NCBI GenBank assembly: GCA_041668805.1
Contig: JBAYCK010000001.1
Location: 1 to 47,723, forward strand
Origin: Fusobacterium sp.
Lineage (GTDB): Bacteria; Fusobacteriota; Fusobacteriia; Fusobacteriales; Fusobacteriaceae
Reading direction: 5' to 3'
Length of the DNA stretch: 47,723 nucleotides
The translations under genes and the position numbers were made by a program. The notes beneath the pieces were generated by a model that saw only the letters and a program-made list of their open reading frames with translations, was not told where the DNA came from and made no database searches. This document shows, one piece after another, positions 3,628 to 42,506 of the stretch; the first letter of the stretch is position 1; every line of letters begins with the position of its first letter.

Positions 3628-4721
3628 GAATAGTATTACTTTATTTTTTAGTTTCAATATTATCATTTGGAAATTCAAATGTTAATCAAATGAAAGAAAA
3701 AATAAAAAAGTTAAACAATGAAATTAAAGTTAAGCATGAAAGAATTGAAGTTATAGATAACACTAAAAAAACAGTTTCTGAGCAAATTAAAGAAATAAAA
3801 AAAGAAATTTCTGGAATTTTGAAAGAGAGAAATGAAATTGAATTAGAAATCAAATCAATTATGAAAAACATTGATTATGGAGAAAGAAATCTAAAATTTT
3901 CTTCCAATGAACTTCAAAGAAAAAAATCAGAATTTGATGCTAAGATAATAGCATGGAATAGAAGAAAAGAATCTAAATTATCCTTTGAAGAAGAAGGAAT
4001 ATTAAAAAGGCAATTTTCTAAAATACTATATAATGATTTAAATAGAATGACAAAAATAAAAGATGTAACTCATGATATAAAAGAAGTTAAACATAACATA
4101 GAAAAGGAAAAAATTAAACTCGCAAGATTAAAAAATTCTTTAAATTTAAAAAAAAATCAAATTTCAAAGAAACAATACCAAAAAAATAAATTAATAAAAA
4201 AATTAGAACAAGAAAAGAAATCTCATATTAATAAAATTTCAACACTAGAGAAACAGAAAAAAAGAATAGAAAAAGAAATAGAAAATATAATTAATTCTAG
4301 AATGAAAAATGTTGGAACAGTTAAGTATTCAACAGCTGTTTCTAAATTAGGAAGAGCAGTATATCCTCTTACAAAGGGAAAGGTTATTATGAACTTTAAC
4401 GATCCTAAAACAAAATCTATTTCAAGCAATGGAATAGAAATGAGAGGGAAATTAGGAAATATTGTAAGGGCGTCCTTTAAAGGAAAGATAATTTATTCTG
4501 GTAAAATTCAAGGATTAGGAAAAGTAATAATGATTGACTATGGTTATAATACTATAGGTGTCTATGGAAATCTAATATCTTCTAAAGTAGTCCAAAATCA
4601 AAAGGTTGTTCAAGGTGAAGGAATAGGTATATTAGGTTATTCAATTAATAAAGTGCCAAATTTATATTATGAAGTTAGAATGAATTTAAAACCTATAAAT
4701 CCTATGAATTTTTTAAAATAA
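3624..4721 (+). CDS. envC: Murein hydrolase activator EnvC (coiled coil + degenerate M23/LytM)
   Basis: Signal peptide, long coiled coil, M23-like C-terminus lacking Zn ligands (SNGIE, NLYYEVR), as in EnvC. Confidence 0.85.
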   Translation: MRIVLLYFLVSILSFGNSNVNQMKEKIKKLNNEIKVKHERIEVIDNTKKTVSEQIKEIKKEISGILKERNEIELEIKSIMKNIDYGERNLKFSSNELQRKKSEFDAKIIAWNRRKESKLSFEEEGILKRQFSKILYNDLNRMTKIKDVTHDIKEVKHNIEKEKIKLARLKNSLNLKKNQISKKQYQKNKLIKKLEQEKKSHINKISTLEKQKKRIEKEIENIINSRMKNVGTVKYSTAVSKLGRAVYPLTKGKVIMNFNDPKTKSISSNGIEMRGKLGNIVRASFKGKIIYSGKIQGLGKVIMIDYGYNTIGVYGNLISSKVVQNQKVVQGEGIGILGYSINKVPNLYYEVRMNLKPINPMNFLK

Positions 4722-26099: not shown

Positions 26100-26723
26100 T
26101 TATTTTCCCCAAGTGTTAGGAGATTTATTCCATTTTAATGCTATTTCTTTTTCTTCTGTAGTAAGATATTTTTTTTCAGCAGCAAGTTCAATAAGAGTTG
26201 TAAAATTAGAAATATTTTCAAGTTTTACATTTGCTTCTTTAAAGTTTTCAATAGCTTTTGGAAATTCATATGAAAATATAGCCACTACTTCAACTTCTTT
26301 TGCTCCAGCTTCTCTAGAAGCCTTTACAGCCTTAATTGAACTTCCCCCAGTGGAAATTAAATCTTCAATAACTATTACTTTTTTTCCTTGAAAATCAGCT
26401 CCCTCAATTTGTTGCCCAGCTCCATGATCTTTTTTAGCAGAACGAATATATGCCATTGGAACATTTAATCTTTCAGCGATAAATCCAGCCCAAGGAATTC
26501 CAGCAGTTGCAGTTCCTGCGATTATATCAAAATTTTTATTTTTTAAAATATCAATAAAACCATCTACAACAATTTTTCTTTCTTCAGGATAGCCAATCAT
26601 TTTTCTATTATCACAATAAATTGGACTTTTTATTCCAGAGACAAAGGTAAATGGCTCCTTTACATTTAATTTAACAGCTCCAACAGACAATAAAGAATTT
26701 GCAACATCTTTTGCTCTACTCAT
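26100..26723 (-). CDS. pyrE: Orotate phosphoribosyltransferase
   Basis: PFT..SGIKSPIYCDNR, AGTATAGIP, VIEDLISTGGS. Confidence 0.96.
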   Translation of the reverse strand: MSRAKDVANSLLSVGAVKLNVKEPFTFVSGIKSPIYCDNRKMIGYPEERKIVVDGFIDILKNKNFDIIAGTATAGIPWAGFIAERLNVPMAYIRSAKKDHGAGQQIEGADFQGKKVIVIEDLISTGGSSIKAVKASREAGAKEVEVVAIFSYEFPKAIENFKEANVKLENISNFTTLIELAAEKKYLTTEEKEIALKWNKSPNTWGK

Positions 26724-26724
26724 A

Positions 26725-27930
26725 TTAAATCACTTCCTTTCCTATTTTAAATTCATTAAATATTCCATTATTATATACAATATTACCTCTTACAATTGTA
26801 GTAATAATATTGCCCCCTTTGTTAAAATCTTCATAAGGGGTCCAATTACATTTTGATATTATATTTTTTTTATCTATTTTTTCATTAATATTTAAATCAA
26901 CAAGCAAAATATCAGCATCATAACCTATTTCTAAACTTCCTTTTCCTTTTAGGTTAAATATTTTACTGGGATTTTCACTCATAAGTCTTTTTAAAGTTTC
27001 AATATCTAATTTTTTTTCTTTTACAGCTTGTAGCATTAATTCCAATGAATTTTCTACTCCAGGAATTCCATAAATTGTATTTTCCTTTTTTTCTTCCAAT
27101 GTATGAGGAGCATGGTCAGTTCCTATAGTATCTATAATTCCTTCATTTATAGCCTTCCAAAGGGCATTGTTATCTGCCTTTGTTTTTAACTGAGGTTTCA
27201 TAACTAAAAGAGGATTGTCTTTTAAATTTTCTTTGTTTAAAAATAAATGATGGGGGGTAACTTCCCCGTAAACTTTTAATTTTTTTTCTTTAGCTTCTCT
27301 TAAATATTCTATTTCTTCCTCAGTTGAAAGATGGCACAGATAAAGGGGAGTATTGGTTTTTTCAGATATTTCAATAGCTTTTTTCACCATTTTTCCTTCT
27401 GCATGTACAGCTACTAATTTTGAATTTTCAAATATATTTTTTAACACTTTCTCATCTTCAACAAGCATATTTCCTGTGGAAACATTCATAAAAATTTTAG
27501 TTGCCACTGAAATATTAATAGTTTTTTTAACTTCGTTACTATTATCTAATTTACTACCTCCAAAATAAAAGGCATAATCTACAAAACTTCTATTTTTAGA
27601 ATTTTCTTTTTTCTTTAGAAGTTCTTCTTTAGTTATAACATTTGGAATAGTGTTTGGCATGTCTAAAAACGTAGTTATTCCTCCTTTAGCGCAAGCCATG
27701 CTTCCAGTTGTAAAGTCTTCCTTGTAAGTAAGCCCAGGATCTCTCATATGAGTGTGAGGATCAATTATTCCAGGAAGAGCGTATTTTCCATTAGCATAAA
27801 TAATTAAATTGTCTTTATTATATTTCAAATGTATTTCGTCTTGGATTTTAGATATTTTTTCATTCTCAATTAAAATATCTTTAGAAACTGCTTTATTATT
27901 TATAAAAATCAAAGCATTTTTAATTAACAT
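26725..27930 (-). CDS. pyrC: Dihydroorotase
   Basis: PG.ID.HTHMRDPG, DMPNT, EVTPHHL, GTDHAPH; inside the pyr operon. Confidence 0.93.
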   Translation of the reverse strand: MLIKNALIFINNKAVSKDILIENEKISKIQDEIHLKYNKDNLIIYANGKYALPGIIDPHTHMRDPGLTYKEDFTTGSMACAKGGITTFLDMPNTIPNVITKEELLKKKENSKNRSFVDYAFYFGGSKLDNSNEVKKTINISVATKIFMNVSTGNMLVEDEKVLKNIFENSKLVAVHAEGKMVKKAIEISEKTNTPLYLCHLSTEEEIEYLREAKEKKLKVYGEVTPHHLFLNKENLKDNPLLVMKPQLKTKADNNALWKAINEGIIDTIGTDHAPHTLEEKKENTIYGIPGVENSLELMLQAVKEKKLDIETLKRLMSENPSKIFNLKGKGSLEIGYDADILLVDLNINEKIDKKNIISKCNWTPYEDFNKGGNIITTIVRGNIVYNNGIFNEFKIGKEVI

Positions 27931-27943
27931 TTTGTCACCTCTT

Positions 27944-28666
27944 TTAATTAATTTTTAAAATTAGCCCTTCTTCAATTTCCTTTATAATTAATTTCACTGC
28001 TTTTTTAGGATCTTCGTTTTTAGTAATTGGTCTTCCTACAACTAAGAAATCGCAACCATTTATAATAGCATTTTTAGGAGTCATAATTCTTTTTTGATCA
28101 TTTGTAGCTGCCCAAAGAGGTCTTACTCCAGGACAGACGGTTTTAAAATCATCTCCTAAGTTTTCTTTTATTAAATTAGCTTCCCAAGGGGAACAAACAA
28201 TTCCATTCATTCCAGATTCTTTAGACAAAGTAGCTAAATTCATAGCAAGTTCTTGTATGCTAGCTTTTGTTTTAAAGGTTTCTTTTATTTCTTCTTCAGA
28301 AAAACTAGTTAGAATAGTTACAGCAATAAGAAGAGAAGATTTATTTATTTTTCTGACTTCTTCAACAACTTTAGTCATCATTTTTTTACCACCAGTAGCA
28401 TGGACATTAAACATAAAAACATCCTTTTTAGCAGCAAAAATAGCAGCCATAGCAGTTGTATTTGGAATATCATGAAATTTTAAATCTAAAAATATTTTTT
28501 TATTATTATCCTTTAAATATTTAAGTATTTCTCCATTGGAATTTAAGAATAACTCAAGTCCAACTTTATAAAAAGTAGCCTCATCTTCTAATGTTTCTAT
28601 TAACCTAATAGCATCTTCCATTTTTGGAAAATCTAAAGCTATTATTAATCTGTCTTTTCCGTTCAT
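27944..28666 (-). CDS. pyrF: Orotidine-5'-phosphate decarboxylase
   Basis: ALD, KVG.EL, FLDLKFHDIPNT, PGVR, DQKR, VVGRPI. Confidence 0.97.
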   Translation of the reverse strand: MNGKDRLIIALDFPKMEDAIRLIETLEDEATFYKVGLELFLNSNGEILKYLKDNNKKIFLDLKFHDIPNTTAMAAIFAAKKDVFMFNVHATGGKKMMTKVVEEVRKINKSSLLIAVTILTSFSEEEIKETFKTKASIQELAMNLATLSKESGMNGIVCSPWEANLIKENLGDDFKTVCPGVRPLWAATNDQKRIMTPKNAIINGCDFLVVGRPITKNEDPKKAVKLIIKEIEEGLILKIN

Positions 28667-28691
28667 AATTAGTCCTCCATATTTAGTGAAA

Positions 28692-29612
28692 TTATTTTTT
28701 AAAGGCTATTCCTTTTATATCTTGCAAATTATTTAAATTGTTTTCAATACAATAATTATTTAATCCTTCTTTTATTTCAAGTGGTAAAAGTGGATTTGGA
28801 AAAATTCCAGTTCCAATGGAGACCATAGTAGCTCCAGCCATTATAAATTCAATTGCATCCTCCCAAGAGTTAATTCCACCCATTCCAATGATTGGAATAT
28901 TTATATTTTGTGCCACTTGATAAACCATTCTTACAGCAACTGGTCTAACAGCAGGGCCAGATAATCCTCCAAAAGTATTTCCTAAGATTGGAGTACCTTT
29001 TTTAATATCTATTTTCATACCAAGCAATGTATTTATCATTGAAATAGCATCAGCTCCACTTTCTTCTACAATTTTAGCAATTTCAACTATATTTGTAACA
29101 TTTGGAGAAAGTTTAACAATTAAAGGTTTGTCTAAAACTTTTTTAACTTCTTTAGTAATTTTTCCTGCAACTTCAGGATTTGCTCCAAAAGCCATTCCAC
29201 CATCTTTAACATTTGGGCAAGAAATATTTAACTCTACCATATGAATTTCTTTTATTTTATTAACCCTTTTAGCAATTTCAACATATTGTTCAAGAGTACT
29301 TCCATTTATATTTACAATTATTTTTGTATTAATGTTTTGTTTTATTAAATTTGGAATAATTTCATTTTCAAGAACATCAATTCCAGGATTTTCAAGACCA
29401 ACACAATTTAACATTCCACTGGGAGTCTCAGCTATTCTAGTTCCTAAATTTCCAGTTCTAGGTTCTAAAGTTAAACCTTTAAGTACAATTCCACCTAATT
29501 CATTTGGATTAAAATAATCTTTATATTCTAATCCAAATCCAAAACAACCAGAAGAAGTTAAAATAGGATTATTAAAGTCAATACCTAAAAAATTTACATT
29601 TAATTTTTTCAA
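28692..29612 (-). CDS. pyrD: Dihydroorotate dehydrogenase family 1B, catalytic subunit
   Basis: SGCFG, ELNISCPNV, VKLSPN, INT, GGLSGPA; TTG start. Confidence 0.96.
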   Translation of the reverse strand: MKKLNVNFLGIDFNNPILTSSGCFGFGLEYKDYFNPNELGGIVLKGLTLEPRTGNLGTRIAETPSGMLNCVGLENPGIDVLENEIIPNLIKQNINTKIIVNINGSTLEQYVEIAKRVNKIKEIHMVELNISCPNVKDGGMAFGANPEVAGKITKEVKKVLDKPLIVKLSPNVTNIVEIAKIVEESGADAISMINTLLGMKIDIKKGTPILGNTFGGLSGPAVRPVAVRMVYQVAQNINIPIIGMGGINSWEDAIEFIMAGATMVSIGTGIFPNPLLPLEIKEGLNNYCIENNLNNLQDIKGIAFKK

Positions 29613-29628
29613 TTTATATCCCCCTTAA

Positions 29629-30396
29629 TTATTTATTAATAATAATTTTGCTATTAAATACAGGACCATCTTTACATACTTTTTTCATGCCATTCTTTGT
29701 AAGAATAGAGCATCCTACACAAGCTCCAACTCCACAAGCCATTCTTTCTTCAAGGGAAACTTCACATGAAATATTTTTACTATCAGCTATATTCATAATA
29801 TGTTTCATCATTATAGATGGGCCACAAGCGTATATTTTATCAACTTTCATTTCTTTCAAAAGAGAAAGTAGAGGGACAGTTACATTCCCTTTTATTCCAA
29901 GAGAACCGTCGTCTGTTGTAATAATTGTTTTTATAGTTTCAAGATTAAAATTTTCTAAAATTTTTATGCTATTTTTATTTCTACCTCCAGAAATAAAGGT
30001 AACATTATTTTTTTTAGAAAGAATATCAATTAAGAATTTCATAGGAGCCATTCCCATTCCTCCACCAATAACAACAATATTTTCTTTTTCCACTTGAATA
30101 TCAAATCCATTTCCAAGAGGACCTTGTAAATTAATAATTTCTCCTGACTTTATATTTTTAAAGTCTTTAGTTCCCTCTCCTTTAACTTCATAATAGAATT
30201 CAATAATATTTTTATTTTTTGATATGTAGTGAAGACTAATGGGCCTTCTTAATAAAGTAGATTTATTTTTGCATTGAAGCATATAAAATTGACCAGGTTT
30301 AGCTAAAGCTATGGATTTTTCACTTTTTAATTTTAATAGGTAATAAGAATCTGAAATTTTAATATTTTCTAAAACCATGCAATCTTCTAAAAACAT
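29629..30396 (-). CDS. pyrK: Dihydroorotate dehydrogenase electron transfer subunit
   Basis: PGQF, LRRPIS, GPLGNGF, ACGP, EERMACGVGAC.GC...C.DGPVF; ATG at 30396 after GGAGG. Confidence 0.95.
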   Translation of the reverse strand: MFLEDCMVLENIKISDSYYLLKLKSEKSIALAKPGQFYMLQCKNKSTLLRRPISLHYISKNKNIIEFYYEVKGEGTKDFKNIKSGEIINLQGPLGNGFDIQVEKENIVVIGGGMGMAPMKFLIDILSKKNNVTFISGGRNKNSIKILENFNLETIKTIITTDDGSLGIKGNVTVPLLSLLKEMKVDKIYACGPSIMMKHIMNIADSKNISCEVSLEERMACGVGACVGCSILTKNGMKKVCKDGPVFNSKIIINK

Positions 30397-30415
30397 ATAT
30401 TCCTCCATATATTAA

Positions 30416-31486
30416 TTAATTAATTTTTTTTCCACAATAGTAACAGAATTGTTCATTATTTTTAATAACTACTTTATTATCTGTTTTTTCAAATTTTGTA
30501 ATGCAATTTTTGTTTGGGCAAAGACTAACATCTTTATTTATTACAGTATCATCATTTATTTTATCTGAAGAATGGATGTTAATTTTACCTAAAGCGATTC
30601 CAATCATAGCTTCTCTTATTTGAACTCCATTTTTAGCTTGTTCAAAGTATACAGCGTGTTTTGTGTCATCTAAATCGATATTAATTTCATTTACTCTAGG
30701 TAAAGGATGAAGAATTATCATATTTTCTTTGCATTTTCCTAGAATAACATTTTTTGAAATTTCAAATGAATTTTTTACTTTTTCATATAAATCTGGATTT
30801 TCAAATCTTTCCCTTTGAATTCTTGTCATATATAGAACATCAACTTCTTTTAGTATTTCTTTGTAATCAGAAAGTAGTTCATAGGGGATATTTTTTGAAT
30901 CTAATATTTTTTTAATTTCACTTGGTATTTGAATTTCTTCAGGAGCTACAAAATAAAATTTTTGTCCTGAAAATTTTGAAAGTGCTTCTGTTAAAGAATG
31001 CACTGTTCGTCCATATTTTAAATCTCCAACAAATGCAGTTGTAAGATTATCAATATTTTTTAGCTTATCTTTAATAGTATACAAATCTAGTAGAGTTTGG
31101 CTAGGGTGCTCATTAGAACCATCTCCAGCGTTAATGATTGGTATAGTTGAAATATCTTTGGCAAACTTAGCAGCCCCATCTCTAAGATGTCTCATAATGA
31201 TCACATCTGAATATCCTTCTATAACTTTTATTGTATCTCTTAGGCTTTCTCCTTTTTTCAATGAAGTTGCATCAGGGCTATCAAATCCAAGAACTTTTCC
31301 TCCTATTTTAAAACTAGCAGAAGTGAAAGAAAGTCTTGTTCTAGTTGATGGTTCAAAGAAAAGTGTTGCAATTATCTTATTTTCAATAAGTTTTTGTTGT
31401 GGGAAATTTTTTAGACTATTTGCTTTATTTAGTATTTCTAGAATTTCATTTTTACTAAAATTTTTAATAGAGATAATACTGTTCAT
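30416..31486 (-). CDS. pyrB: Aspartate carbamoyltransferase with fused C-terminal PyrI-type Zn domain
   Basis: FFEPSTRT, HPSQ, GDLK.GRT, RIQRER, HPLP; tail CPNKNCIT...CYYC. Confidence 0.95.
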   Translation of the reverse strand: MNSIISIKNFSKNEILEILNKANSLKNFPQQKLIENKIIATLFFEPSTRTRLSFTSASFKIGGKVLGFDSPDATSLKKGESLRDTIKVIEGYSDVIIMRHLRDGAAKFAKDISTIPIINAGDGSNEHPSQTLLDLYTIKDKLKNIDNLTTAFVGDLKYGRTVHSLTEALSKFSGQKFYFVAPEEIQIPSEIKKILDSKNIPYELLSDYKEILKEVDVLYMTRIQRERFENPDLYEKVKNSFEISKNVILGKCKENMIILHPLPRVNEINIDLDDTKHAVYFEQAKNGVQIREAMIGIALGKINIHSSDKINDDTVINKDVSLCPNKNCITKFEKTDNKVVIKNNEQFCYYCGKKIN

Positions 31487-31498
31487 AAATATCCTCCT

Positions 31499-31543
31499 AA
31501 AAAAAAAGAATAAAAATTACAAAATTAGTAATTTTTATTCTTT
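31499..31543 (-). terminator. Attenuator terminator of the pyr operon leader
   Basis: aaagaataaaaattac-taatttt-gtaatttttattcttt plus further Ts, directly before the pyrB RBS. Confidence 0.8.
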
Positions 31544-40775: not shown

Positions 40776-41834
40776 TTAAAATTTATATTCAAATAATTTT
40801 AAAAAATCATCGAATAAGTAATTATTATCTTCTGGTCCAGGACAACCTTCAGGATGATATTGAACACTCATAATATGAAATTCATCACTTTTTAATCCTT
40901 CTATAGAGTTGTCATTTAGATTTATATGAGTAACTTCCATAGAATCAGGAACCTTATCAACAACATATCCATGATTTTGTGAAGTTATATGAATTTTATT
41001 TCTCTCTAAATCTTTTACAGGATGATTACATCCTCTGTGTCCATATTTTAATTTTGTTGTTGAACCTCCTAAAGCTAAAGCAATTAGTTGTTGTCCTAAG
41101 CAAATTCCAGCTATAGGTAATTTTCCAATTATTTTTTTTATTTCAAGGATAGAATTTTCTAAGTCAGTTGGGTCCCCAGGTCCATTTGATAAGAACAAAC
41201 CATCTAAATTATATTTTAAAATTTCATCAGCTGTTGTATCCCAAGGAAAAACAGTTAAATTACAGTTTCTATTTTGGAAATTTCTAAGAATATTTCTTTT
41301 TATACCAAAATCCATAACTCCAATTTTTTTACCATATCCTTTAATTTCATAAATTTCTTTAGTACTAACTTTTGCAACTGCTGTAGAATTATTAAAATTA
41401 CTAAATCTTTCATATAATTCTTTTTCAGTTAAATCCTCAGCAGTTATAATTGCTTTCATAGCACCTTCTTCTCTAATGATTTTAACTAGTTGTCTAGTGT
41501 CGACTCCTTTAAAAGCTACAATATTATTTTGTCTTAAAAATCCGTCTAAAGTCATTTCACATCTGAAATTATTGGGAAGTTTAGCATCTTCTTTTATAAT
41601 GAATCCCTTTAGATAAGAACGGTCAGATTCCATATCTTCTAAGTTAATACCATAGTTTCCTATCATTGGATATGTCATTACAACAATTTGACCGCAATAA
41701 GACGGATCAGTTAAAAGTTCTTGATAACCTGTCATTCCAGTATTAAAAACTATTTCACCAACTGTTTCACCAAGTTCTCCAAATATTTTTCCTTCAAAAA
41801 TATTTCCATTTTCAAGAATTAATTTTCCTTTCAT
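40776..41834 (-). CDS. carA: Carbamoyl-phosphate synthase small subunit
   Basis: GEIVFNTGMTGYQE, LSNGPGDP, GICLG, SQNHG, QYHPE; ATG at 41834 after GGGAGG. Confidence 0.97.
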   Translation of the reverse strand: MKGKLILENGNIFEGKIFGELGETVGEIVFNTGMTGYQELLTDPSYCGQIVVMTYPMIGNYGINLEDMESDRSYLKGFIIKEDAKLPNNFRCEMTLDGFLRQNNIVAFKGVDTRQLVKIIREEGAMKAIITAEDLTEKELYERFSNFNNSTAVAKVSTKEIYEIKGYGKKIGVMDFGIKRNILRNFQNRNCNLTVFPWDTTADEILKYNLDGLFLSNGPGDPTDLENSILEIKKIIGKLPIAGICLGQQLIALALGGSTTKLKYGHRGCNHPVKDLERNKIHITSQNHGYVVDKVPDSMEVTHINLNDNSIEGLKSDEFHIMSVQYHPEGCPGPEDNNYLFDDFLKLFEYKF

Positions 41835-41857
41835 GTAACCTCCCAATATAATTATAT

Positions 41858-41888
41858 AAAAAAAAAGATATAACATTAAGTTATATCT
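41858..41888 (-). terminator. Attenuator terminator of the carAB leader
   Basis: agatataac-ttaat-gttatatct followed by 8 T. Confidence 0.75.
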
Positions 41889-41997
41889 GAAATTCAAAAT
41901 AAATATTAAAAAAATAAGAAAAAAATGAAAAAATAAATAAAATGTAGGATTCTTTTAAATTGCTATAATATTTAAAAAAACATCTAAATTTATACAT
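41881..41997 (-). CDS. carAB leader peptide, 38 aa (MYKFRCFFKYYSNLKESYILFIFSFFSYFFNIYFEFQI)
   Basis: AAAGGGGG RBS + ATG; 65/117 nt are U; TAA inside the terminator 5' arm. Confidence 0.72.
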   Translation of the reverse strand: MYKFRCFFKYYSNLKESYILFIFSFFSYFFNIYFEFQI

Positions 41998-42026
41998 TAT
42001 TTCCCCCTTTCAATTTCTTAAAGAGA

Positions 42027-42055
42027 AGTATACTATAAAAAAAAAATAATGTCAA
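42027..42055 (-). promoter_or_regulatory. carAB promoter TTGACA-N17-TATACT
   Basis: Near-consensus sigma70 promoter 30 nt upstream of the leader ATG. Confidence 0.75.
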
Positions 42056-42116
42056 ATAAAATAAAAAATATGGTATACTAAATAGAGTACTCAAATTCAG
42101 AATAGGAGGGCTTCTA

Positions 42117-42506
42117 ATGAAATTTAAAATAATAACAAATAACAAAAAAGTTTTTCATTTTTATAAAGAAACTGATGATGTTATTTATTTAAAAGAGGCT
42201 AATTTAACAAAAGTTTTAGCAGAAGTTTATAAATATGTCTTAAAGGGGCATAAATTATTAAGTGATCCTATAATATATAATATAGCGAATATAGAAAATC
42301 CATTTAAGTCAATATTAATTTCAAAAGATCTAGATATAAGTGGTATAAATTCTTTAAATATGATAAAAGGAGCTTTAAAAATATCGGAAAAATTACCTCA
42401 GCCAGATTTAAAAAAACATTCAAAGGATAGATTAGAAGAATACAGATATGTTGATCTTAATTTGTTAATAAATAGTATAAAAGAAGTAAAGATAAAATGC
42501 AATTAG
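42117..42506 (+). CDS. GrdX-like protein
   Basis: IITNN..V, GHKLLS.P, NPFKSILI and Y..VD..L pattern recalled for the GrdX family. Confidence 0.65.
   Translation: MKFKIITNNKKVFHFYKETDDVIYLKEANLTKVLAEVYKYVLKGHKLLSDPIIYNIANIENPFKSILISKDLDISGINSLNMIKGALKISEKLPQPDLKKHSKDRLEEYRYVDLNLLINSIKEVKIKCN

What the first reader, a model, noticed from the sequence alone, without database searches (positions are those of the whole stretch)
41858..42055. Second, parallel U-rich leader attenuator in front of carAB
Seen on the minus strand: TTGACA-N17-TATACT promoter, AAAGGGGG RBS, a 38-codon ORF (41997-41881; 65/117 U, 11 Phe, 6 Tyr), TAA in the 5' arm of agatataac/gttatatct, U8, then the carA RBS. Known: E. 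coli carAB pyrimidine control uses initiation control and reiterative transcription, and Bacillus pyrAA/AB uses PyrR. I do not know of a pyrL-type leader on carAB. Inference: UTP-sensing attenuation of carbamoyl-phosphate synthesis.
Basis: partly seen in the sequence, partly recalled or inferred. Interest (0 to 1): 0.8.

Follow-up and report, generated by a model that had tools for sequence, protein, structure and literature searches.

The report
UTP-sensing leader attenuator on Fusobacteriaceae carAB
In front of the carAB genes lies a short, uridine-rich reading frame that runs into a predicted transcription-stop hairpin; this layout is kept across most Fusobacteriaceae examined and likely lets a ribosome switch the genes on when the cell is short of UTP, a design known from E. 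coli and Pseudomonas but found here in a phylum where ribosomes are thought to lag far behind RNA polymerase.

Summary
Real and conserved, but the design is known. All parts are present: promoter, RBS, a 38-codon ORF (65/117 U), a stop in the 5' arm of a 9-bp hairpin (z -4.15), U8, carA. A twin precedes pyrB, and a scan of 1,162 genes found no other U-rich case. At least one carA has the leader in 34 of 37 family genomes. The frame is open to the hairpin in 33 of 33 dissimilar leaders (2.4 expected), while peptide length and sequence drift (omega about 0.5). The four arginine-linked carA copies lack it. PyrR occurs in 1 of 61 genomes, and that genome lacks it too. No antiterminator forms downstream of a modelled ribosome. 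Best reading: pyrL/pyrE-type UTP-sensing attenuation (about 0.7); there is no expression evidence. The new part is a family-wide example in a phylum classed as 'runaway' transcription. The scan noted a similar design earlier before a pyrR operon in another genome, not this family.

The parts
42027..42055 (-). sigma70-type promoter (TTGACA-17-TATACT); start site inferred near 42020
   Evidence: a matching promoter 25-42 nt before the leader start in all 57 distinct carA leaders called (the script required one)
42003..42010 (-). Shine-Dalgarno of the leader ORF
   Evidence: a G-rich peak just before the start codon across the family (the script required an SD)
41881..41997 (-). 38-codon leader ORF; first half 42% U, second half 73% U; stop codon inside the hairpin's 5' arm
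   Evidence: frame open to within 15 nt of the hairpin in 56 of 57 distinct relatives and 33 of 33 dissimilar ones, against 2.4 expected
41866..41888 (-). predicted intrinsic terminator hairpin, 9 bp, 5-nt loop, 2 G-C pairs
   Evidence: -8.9 kcal/mol, z -4.15; pairing probability 0.999 in the whole leader
41858..41865 (-). U8 tract
40776..41844 (-). carA with its own SD (41844-41839; ATG 41834)
   Evidence: TIGR01368 468 bits
37504..40710 (-). carB
   Evidence: TIGR01369
31535..31633 (-). twin 32-codon U-rich leader ORF before pyrB
   Evidence: frame open in 26 of 26 relatives called
31505..31543 (-). twin terminator hairpin before pyrB, followed by a U tract
   Evidence: -14.9 kcal/mol, z -5.58
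26100..31486 (-). pyrB-pyrK-pyrD-pyrF-pyrC-pyrE operon under the twin leader

Best explanation
This is a conserved leader ORF ending in a predicted intrinsic terminator ahead of carAB, and it likely works as a pyrL/pyrE-type attenuator: with plentiful UTP, RNA polymerase would run through the U-rich half ahead of the ribosome, the hairpin would fold and transcription would stop before carA; with scarce UTP, polymerase would slow in the U runs, the ribosome would catch up, cover the hairpin's 5' arm and allow read-through. Shown: the anatomy; conservation of the frame up to the hairpin; restriction to pyrimidine-linked copies; no PyrR and no PyrR loop; no antiterminator in folding models downstream of a ribosome; weak selection on the peptide. 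Inferred: that the ORF is translated (from codon-level selection), that the hairpin terminates, that UTP is the signal, and the kinetics. The weak carA hairpin may leave basal read-through that supplies arginine synthesis (speculative).
For: (1) The frame is kept open. Among leaders less than 80% alike, 33 of 33 carA and 17 of 17 pyrB leaders have no in-frame stop up to 15 nt before the hairpin, against 2.4 and 1.6 expected from half-wise dinucleotide shuffles. The other two carA frames hold 4.2 and 5.2 stops on average. (2) The stop sits where a ribosome would block the hairpin: -7 to +54 nt from its first base in 56 of 57 carA leaders, and -12 to +48 in 26 of 26 pyrB leaders. PMC4824070 (passages) shows that ribosomes repress terminators this close to a stop, and that short leaders need pauses for coupling. 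(3) RNA matters more than peptide. Lengths run from 32 to 71 codons, and omega is about 0.5 against 0.054 for carA itself. The U-rich half has half as many changes as the A-rich half (58 in 516 codons against 118 in 505; 27 pairs). U content is 0.39/0.49/0.51 at the three codon positions. (4) It tracks pyrimidines. Of 1,162 genes in this genome, 65 upstream hairpins passed as leader terminators, 5 had a uORF reaching the hairpin, and only those of carA and pyrB are U-rich. Three carA copies inside arg operons and one beside argB have no leader terminator; in G024, G029 and G031 the other copy has the leader. In 3 loci where pyrB follows carB, the leader is on carA instead. (5) It alternates with PyrR. 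PyrR is over the cut-off in 1 of 61 genomes. That genome has a pyrR-pyrB-pyrC-carA operon with a PyrR-type loop and no leader ORF at carA. No PyrR-like loop was found in 57 carA or 26 pyrB leaders (pattern recalled). (6) The hairpin forms at P of 0.9 or more in 56 of 56 free carA leaders and at 0.98 or more downstream of a ribosome at any codon, so relief would be steric. (7) E. coli pyrL has the same layout: 44 codons, U above its coding mean, the frame crossing a hairpin and U8. Its ribosome-coupled control is described in PMC5021804 (passages).
Against: No RNA, ribosome or reporter data were obtained, so UTP sensing rests on composition and gene context. The hairpin is weak and fails a standard terminator scan. 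Fusobacteria are classed as runaway (PMC13323073, methods passage), and 89 of 208 gene-end terminators here lie within 12 nt of a stop, against 8 of 35 in 420 kb of E. coli (Fisher p 0.026). A stop beside a hairpin therefore does not by itself imply ribosomal interference in this organism. Codon-level selection is above neutral (synonymous share 0.378 against 0.255, P 0.002), which leaves room for a peptide role. With the 5' UTR left free, 14 of 56 carA leaders (not this one) lost the hairpin at some modelled ribosome position. This CarAB probably also serves arginine synthesis (one carA; argC, argF and argG present; no carbamate kinase), so purely pyrimidine control would be incomplete. The relatives are kin, not independent draws.
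Confidence: 0.7

Rival explanations
1. Same parts and the same UTP signal, but the switch acts at ribosome loading. If polymerase copies the U-rich half quickly, that half pairs back onto the A/G-rich start and hides the leader RBS, so no ribosome loads and the terminator fires; a pause at low UTP gives the ribosome time to load first.
For: In the folded full leader the RBS region is mostly paired (unpaired probability 0.21 here; family medians 0.25). The A-then-U gradient is conserved.
Against: The pairing is not clearly above shuffles (z -1.70, 14 of 200 as good) and follows from composition alone. It does not explain why the frame must reach the hairpin.
Confidence: 0.08
2. The leader senses general coupling, not UTP. 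Constitutive pauses (for example NusG-type TTNTTT sites) hold polymerase, and read-through reports ribosome availability or growth rate.
For: There are 11 TTNTTT matches in the 110 nt before the hairpin. NusG pausing at this motif is described for B. subtilis (PMC9226507, passages). The host is classed as runaway.
Against: The layout occurs only at carA and pyrB among 1,162 genes, is absent from arginine-linked copies, and alternates with PyrR. TTNTTT matches are expected in any U-rich tract.
Confidence: 0.09
3. The peptide or its codons are the sensor: Phe- or Arg-tRNA limitation, or a nascent-peptide arrest, moves the ribosome and so controls the hairpin.
For: Phe makes up 18% of leader codons against 4.8% genome-wide. 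Omega of about 0.5 is below neutral. True amino-acid leaders exist in this lineage.
Against: There is no conserved peptide motif, Phe counts range from 1 to 11, and several carA leaders have no Arg. With no antiterminator, a stalled ribosome would favour termination, the wrong sign for arginine starvation. The trpS and argC leaders differ: they keep WW or Arg motifs and end 130-250 nt before their gene.
Confidence: 0.07
4. Termination is Rho-dependent on the exposed pyrimidine-rich leader, and the hairpin is mainly a pause or 3'-end protector.
For: The stem is weak. The leader has only 38% purines. B. subtilis Rho favours T-rich RNA (PMC13323073, passages). A 413-aa protein with recalled Rho motifs is in the genome (not confirmed by HMM).
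Against: The leader is C-poor. A hairpin plus U tract is kept in every leader called, and pyrB hairpins are strong (-10.7 to -27).
Confidence: 0.05
5. The ORF is a chance frame in AT-rich intergenic DNA, or a small stand-alone gene followed by its ordinary terminator.
For: AT-rich genome (27.5% GC). The Cetobacterium version is annotated as a hypothetical protein. Terminators often abut stop codons here.
Against: 33 of 33 frames open against 2.4 expected. Only 19-49 nt separate the U tract from carA in 53 of 57 leaders, little room for a separate promoter. The peptide has no constant length or motif.
Confidence: 0.01

Closest known systems
E. coli pyrL (pyrBI attenuator)
   Same: Short translated leader enriched in U, an intrinsic terminator reached by the frame, no antiterminator, ribosome suppresses termination (PMC5021804 and PMC4824070 passages; UTP-sensitive pausing recalled).
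   Different: Another phylum. The leader here is far richer in U (0.57 against a coding mean of 0.32; pyrL 0.31-0.34 against 0.24). The stop lies in the 5' arm here and 43 nt past the hairpin start in pyrL, although 9 of 57 carA relatives read through like pyrL. It is on carAB as well as pyrB. No initial U run for reiterative transcription is seen at the inferred start (by eye).
E. coli rph-pyrE attenuator
   Same: A reading frame ends just at a hairpin and U tract ahead of a pyr gene (layout seen; its UTP-coupled mechanism is recalled).
   Different: There the upstream frame is a full gene (rph); here it is a dedicated 32-71 codon leader with its own promoter.
Pseudomonas aeruginosa carA leader
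   Same: Leader peptide and terminator before carA, pyrimidine control by attenuation, one CPSase for two pathways (PMC4997734 passages citing Kwon 1994; primary paper not held).
   Different: P. aeruginosa adds ArgR control at the promoter; no E. coli/Bacillus-type ArgR (PF01316) was found in 37 genomes here, and the Pseudomonas AraC-type ArgR was not searched. Its leader sequence was not compared.
PyrR-dependent attenuation (B. subtilis pyr; G025 in this family; Clostridium carA leaders)
   Same: Premature termination ahead of pyr/carAB genes in response to uridine nucleotides.
   Different: It needs PyrR, a binding loop and an antiterminator; none was found here.
Thermus ZO5 pyrR-pyrB leader (named in earlier scan note e1-6946345)
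   Same: Reported translated leader running into a terminator ahead of pyr genes.
   Different: Not read or tested here; there pyrR is present.

Membership tests
pyrL/pyrE-type UTP-sensing ribosome-coupled attenuator | Reading frame with its own RBS that reaches the terminator hairpin | tested here: met
   56 of 57 carA and 26 of 26 pyrB leaders; codon-level selection
pyrL/pyrE-type UTP-sensing ribosome-coupled attenuator | Hairpin plus U tract between the promoter and the first pyr gene | tested here: met
   (structure only; the stem is weak and missed by the scanner)
pyrL/pyrE-type UTP-sensing ribosome-coupled attenuator | U-rich tract upstream of the hairpin | tested here: met
   U 0.53-0.60 in the window 60 to 15 nt before the hairpin across 33 carA leaders; coding mean 0.32
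pyrL/pyrE-type UTP-sensing ribosome-coupled attenuator | No competing antiterminator | tested here: met
   (folding models); 14 of 56 relatives lose the hairpin only when the 5' UTR may pair across the ribosome
pyrL/pyrE-type UTP-sensing ribosome-coupled attenuator | Peptide sequence dispensable | tested here: inconclusive
   omega about 0.5: far above carA (0.054) but below neutral
pyrL/pyrE-type UTP-sensing ribosome-coupled attenuator | UTP-sensitive pausing and a pyrimidine-dependent change in read-through that needs translation | not testable with these tools
   needs in vitro transcription and reporters
PyrR-dependent attenuator | pyrR gene in the genome | tested here: not met
   over cut-off in 1 of 61 genomes, not in G000 (79% complete) or its 99%-complete close relatives
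PyrR-dependent attenuator | PyrR binding loop and antiterminator in the leader | tested here: not met
   the same recalled pattern does find the loop in G025
Amino-acid-sensing leader-peptide attenuator (trp/phe type) | Conserved control codons for an amino acid made by the operon, plus alternative hairpins | tested here: not met
   contrast with the trpS and argC leaders
Reiterative-transcription control (E. coli carAB P1, pyrBI) | Three or more U right after the start nucleotide | tested here: inconclusive
   U/C-rich spacer then purines in most leaders, so no run after the likely start; start sites are not mapped

The most novel reading that the evidence does not exclude
Fusobacteriaceae run a two-operon pyrimidine regulon with no regulator protein, on conditional coupling. 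RNA polymerase normally outruns ribosomes, and these A-then-U leaders are dedicated brakes that create transcription-translation coupling only when UTP is low. They alternate with PyrR across the family and arose independently of the proteobacterial pyrL. That would be a clear case of a catch-up (not stalling) ribosome attenuator in a phylum classed as runaway.
Probability: 0.4. Interest if true: 0.68.

Novelty: new member of a known kind. Interest (0 to 1): 0.5.

Why it matters
It gives a likely answer to how most Fusobacteriaceae, including fish-gut Cetobacterium, regulate pyrimidine synthesis without PyrR, and it explains a set of 'hypothetical' small proteins. It also offers a natural test of an open question: can a polymerase that normally outruns ribosomes be coupled on demand? 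Steric, catch-up attenuation is expected to be hard in runaway organisms, so either result informs the field. More than 80 natural variants with different stop-to-hairpin spacings are at hand. The attenuator design itself, even on carAB, is not new.

Tried and rejected
Rfam at gathering scores found nothing in the window. NCBIfam found no family for either leader peptide. PyrR control was rejected. A dual arginine-plus-UTP leader, in which a stall at Arg codons frees an antiterminator, was tested and not supported: P of 0.98 or more in 56 of 56. ArgR control: PF01316 in 0 of 37 genomes, found in 8 of 14 controls. Carbamate kinase as a second carbamoyl-phosphate source: 0 of 5 over cut-off. No such leader was seen before pyrG, upp, uraA or pyrH (genes picked by recalled motifs; the ORF before upp looks like ribosomal protein L31 by recall). 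RNA evidence: 15 runs were listed, all kept as contigs, with one metatranscriptome holding 0.77 of the words. None was laid on the sequence, so nothing is claimed about expression, and contigs cannot show RNA ends in any case. Script history: the start-picking rule was widened, which moved pyrB leader L038 from 17 to 40 codons and recovered L009, L024 and L045. Rows outside the 57: L028 and L084 (contig ends), L012 (no leader), and L063 (missed by the script; 42 codons ending in the hairpin by hand). L091 is the one closed frame among the 57 and is open for 46 codons from the ATG 10 nt further on. The naive pN/pS (0.43, 0.31) was superseded by the simulated null. Papers not held: Kwon 1994, Turnbough and Switzer 2008, Johnson 2020, Roland 1988. 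Naville and Gautheret 2010 has no main-text mention of pyrimidine genes or Fusobacteria; its supplements were not read and may list these terminators.

Full report
Observation. carA and carB pass NCBIfam cut-offs. The hairpin folds at -8.9 kcal/mol with z -4.15. It has only two G-C pairs, so the terminator scan missed it. Rfam reports nothing in the window. A twin lies 10 kb downstream, before the pyrB-pyrK-pyrD-pyrF-pyrC-pyrE operon: a 32-codon ORF at 31633-31535 ending in a -14.9 kcal/mol hairpin. Named relatives place the genome in Fusobacteriaceae: the nearest named carA is from Fusobacterium sp. MFO224 (88%), and Cetobacterium is at 75-77%.

Conservation. I took carA loci from 61 genomes of the order (30 loci, 20 more stretches), 80 named carA loci and 30 pyrB loci. 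A script anchored on promoter, SD, first start codon and terminator, and did not select for an open frame. It called 57 distinct carA leaders and 26 pyrB leaders. The frame is open to within 15 nt of the hairpin in 56 of 57 and 26 of 26. Among leaders less than 80% alike the counts are 33 of 33 and 17 of 17, against 2.4 and 1.6 expected from shuffles that keep the A-to-U gradient. The other two frames of carA leaders average 4.2 and 5.2 stops. The stop falls from 7 nt before to 54 nt after the hairpin's first base, while length varies from 32 to 71 codons. By genome, 34 of 37 family members have the leader on at least one carA (one of them scored by hand). The three without are G017 (only an argB-adjacent copy was found; 93% complete), G025 (PyrR operon) and G027 (no leader at carA or pyrB). 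Outside the family, 1 of 8 carA loci of other families in the order has it. So does 1 of 48 Clostridia/Bacillota loci (L135); three others read by eye carry PyrR-type loops. These genomes are kin, so the counts overstate independence.

What is under selection. In 27 disjoint pairs of close leaders, omega is about 0.49 in the first half and 0.54 in the second, against 0.054 for carA codons. The synonymous share is above a neutral, stop-avoiding null (P 0.002 for carA). That points to translation with weak constraint on the product, and it leaves some room for a peptide role. The U-rich half changes half as often as the A-rich half (58 of 516 against 118 of 505 codons). U is high at all three codon positions. 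Phe (18%) follows from UUU; Phe counts range from 1 to 11.

What it tracks. In this genome, 1,162 genes had enough upstream sequence; 65 upstream hairpins passed as leader terminators, and 5 of them had a uORF reaching the hairpin. Two are carA and pyrB (U 0.57 and 0.52). The other three have U of about 0.3 and look, by recall, like two tRNA read-throughs and the end of a truncated gene. Three carA copies inside arg operons and a fourth next to argB have no leader terminator, and G024, G029 and G031 carry the leader on their other copy. Where pyrB follows carB, the leader sits on carA. PyrR passes its cut-off in 1 of 61 genomes. That genome has pyrR-pyrB-pyrC-carA with a PyrR-type loop; one genome is too few for a test of exclusion. 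No leader has a PyrR-like loop. The hairpin dominates in free RNA (56 of 56 at P of 0.9 or more) and downstream of a ribosome at any codon (0.98 or more). When the 5' UTR may pair across the ribosome, 14 of 56 relatives lose it at some position, though not this leader.

Mechanism. The anatomy fits E. coli pyrL, which I measured the same way: 44 codons, U 0.31-0.34 against a coding mean of 0.24, and a frame crossing a -13.7 hairpin and U8. Passages of PMC5021804 and PMC4824070 describe ribosome suppression of that terminator, its steep dependence on stop position, and the need for pauses to couple a ribosome in a short leader. UTP sensitivity of the pauses is recalled, not read. The likely model here: an A-rich first half is copied regardless of UTP and loads a ribosome; the U runs slow polymerase only when UTP is low; the ribosome reaches the stop inside the 5' arm and blocks folding. 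I put this at 0.7. A variant in which the U-rich half hides the leader RBS, a general coupling sensor, a codon or peptide sensor, and Rho-dependent termination share most of the rest. No expression data were obtained (one search listed contig-only runs; none was laid).

Two complications. First, this CarAB probably serves arginine synthesis too. One carA was found here and in each of the 99%-complete relatives G001 and G011; argC, argF and argG are present; no carbamate kinase was found; and no PF01316 ArgR in 37 genomes. The leader shows no way to sense arginine. A weak hairpin with basal read-through is one speculative solution. Second, Fusobacteria are classed as runaway-transcription bacteria (PMC13323073, methods passage; the proxy is described in PMC7858274, passage). 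This genome fits modestly: 89 of 208 gene-end terminators lie within 12 nt of a stop, against 8 of 35 in 420 kb of E. coli (medians 14.5 and 23; Fisher p 0.026; small control, crude hairpin picking). This weakens the stop-beside-hairpin argument on its own. It also makes the case more interesting, because coupling would have to be created by the U tract. Stalling-type leaders also occur in the lineage (trpS with WW in 4 of 30 loci; argC with Arg motifs in 12 of 19), but they end 130-250 nt before their gene.

Prior knowledge. A carA leader peptide and pyrimidine attenuation are reported for P. aeruginosa (PMC4997734, passages; primary paper not held). E. coli carAB uses initiation control and reiterative transcription (PMC6245113 and PMC6524683, passages). 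Ten full-text searches (listings and abstract starts) showed no paper describing these leaders in Fusobacteriota. The library lacks most subscription papers, and I read no supplements. Of four relatives' peptides looked up, one is on record, as 'hypothetical protein', and three are absent. An earlier scan note (e1-6946345) describes a translated leader through a terminator before a pyrR operon in another genome; I did not test it.

Verdict. A real, family-wide regulatory leader that works most likely like pyrL/pyrE. It is a new member of a known kind, with added interest as a test of on-demand coupling in a runaway phylum. Interest 0.5.

Noticed in passing
G000:C7, 224-182 nt upstream of trpS (L207; also L205, L198, L200): 14-codon leader ending ILCWWNN, conserved in 4 of 30 trpS loci (the window's own clade), with a downstream terminator: looks like a Trp-sensing leader-peptide attenuator.
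   Followed up: partly
G000:C67, 236-146 nt upstream of argC (L176) and L166-L177: Arg-containing leader peptides before argC in 12 of 19 loci (MMLLRxFR in the own clade, MKMIRRIR in another family, MRRYRRIR in G020), with no PF01316 ArgR in 37 genomes: probable ribosome-mediated arginine attenuation, which E. coli lacks according to PMC6245113.
   Followed up: partly
G000:C86, upstream of the gene before argG (about 3800-4000, minus strand): A second uORF with RSRR and a downstream hairpin plus U tract ahead of a binding-protein gene and argG.
   Followed up: no
G000:C85, upstream of 754 (trpE-like gene): Long leader with a T-box-like motif (recalled) and tandem terminators.
   Followed up: no
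window 30416-31486: PyrB has a C-terminal extension with a weak match to the aspartate carbamoyltransferase regulatory subunit (TIGR00240, residues 318-356, E 1.5e-5): a possible fused PyrI zinc domain, full-length in most of the family's hits.
   Followed up: no
L135: A record labelled uncultured Clostridia has the same promoter-leader-terminator layout before a 65% identical carA; transfer or mislabelling.
   Followed up: no
L012 and L053 (G027): A GC-richer family member with no leader ORF at carA or pyrB and no PyrR: its pyrimidine control is unexplained.
   Followed up: partly
L016 and L072 (G022): Two near-identical carAB copies; a deletion in one leader moves the stop from the 5' arm to 54 nt past the hairpin start, a natural pair for testing.
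   Followed up: no
window 42040-42130: The divergent grdX-family gene (42117-42506) appears to have a promoter overlapping the carA promoter back to back (read by eye).
   Followed up: no
L075, L076, L079, L080: carA in another family of the order has a strong promoter and a short A/U-rich 5' UTR with no terminator and no PyrR; its control is unknown.
   Followed up: no
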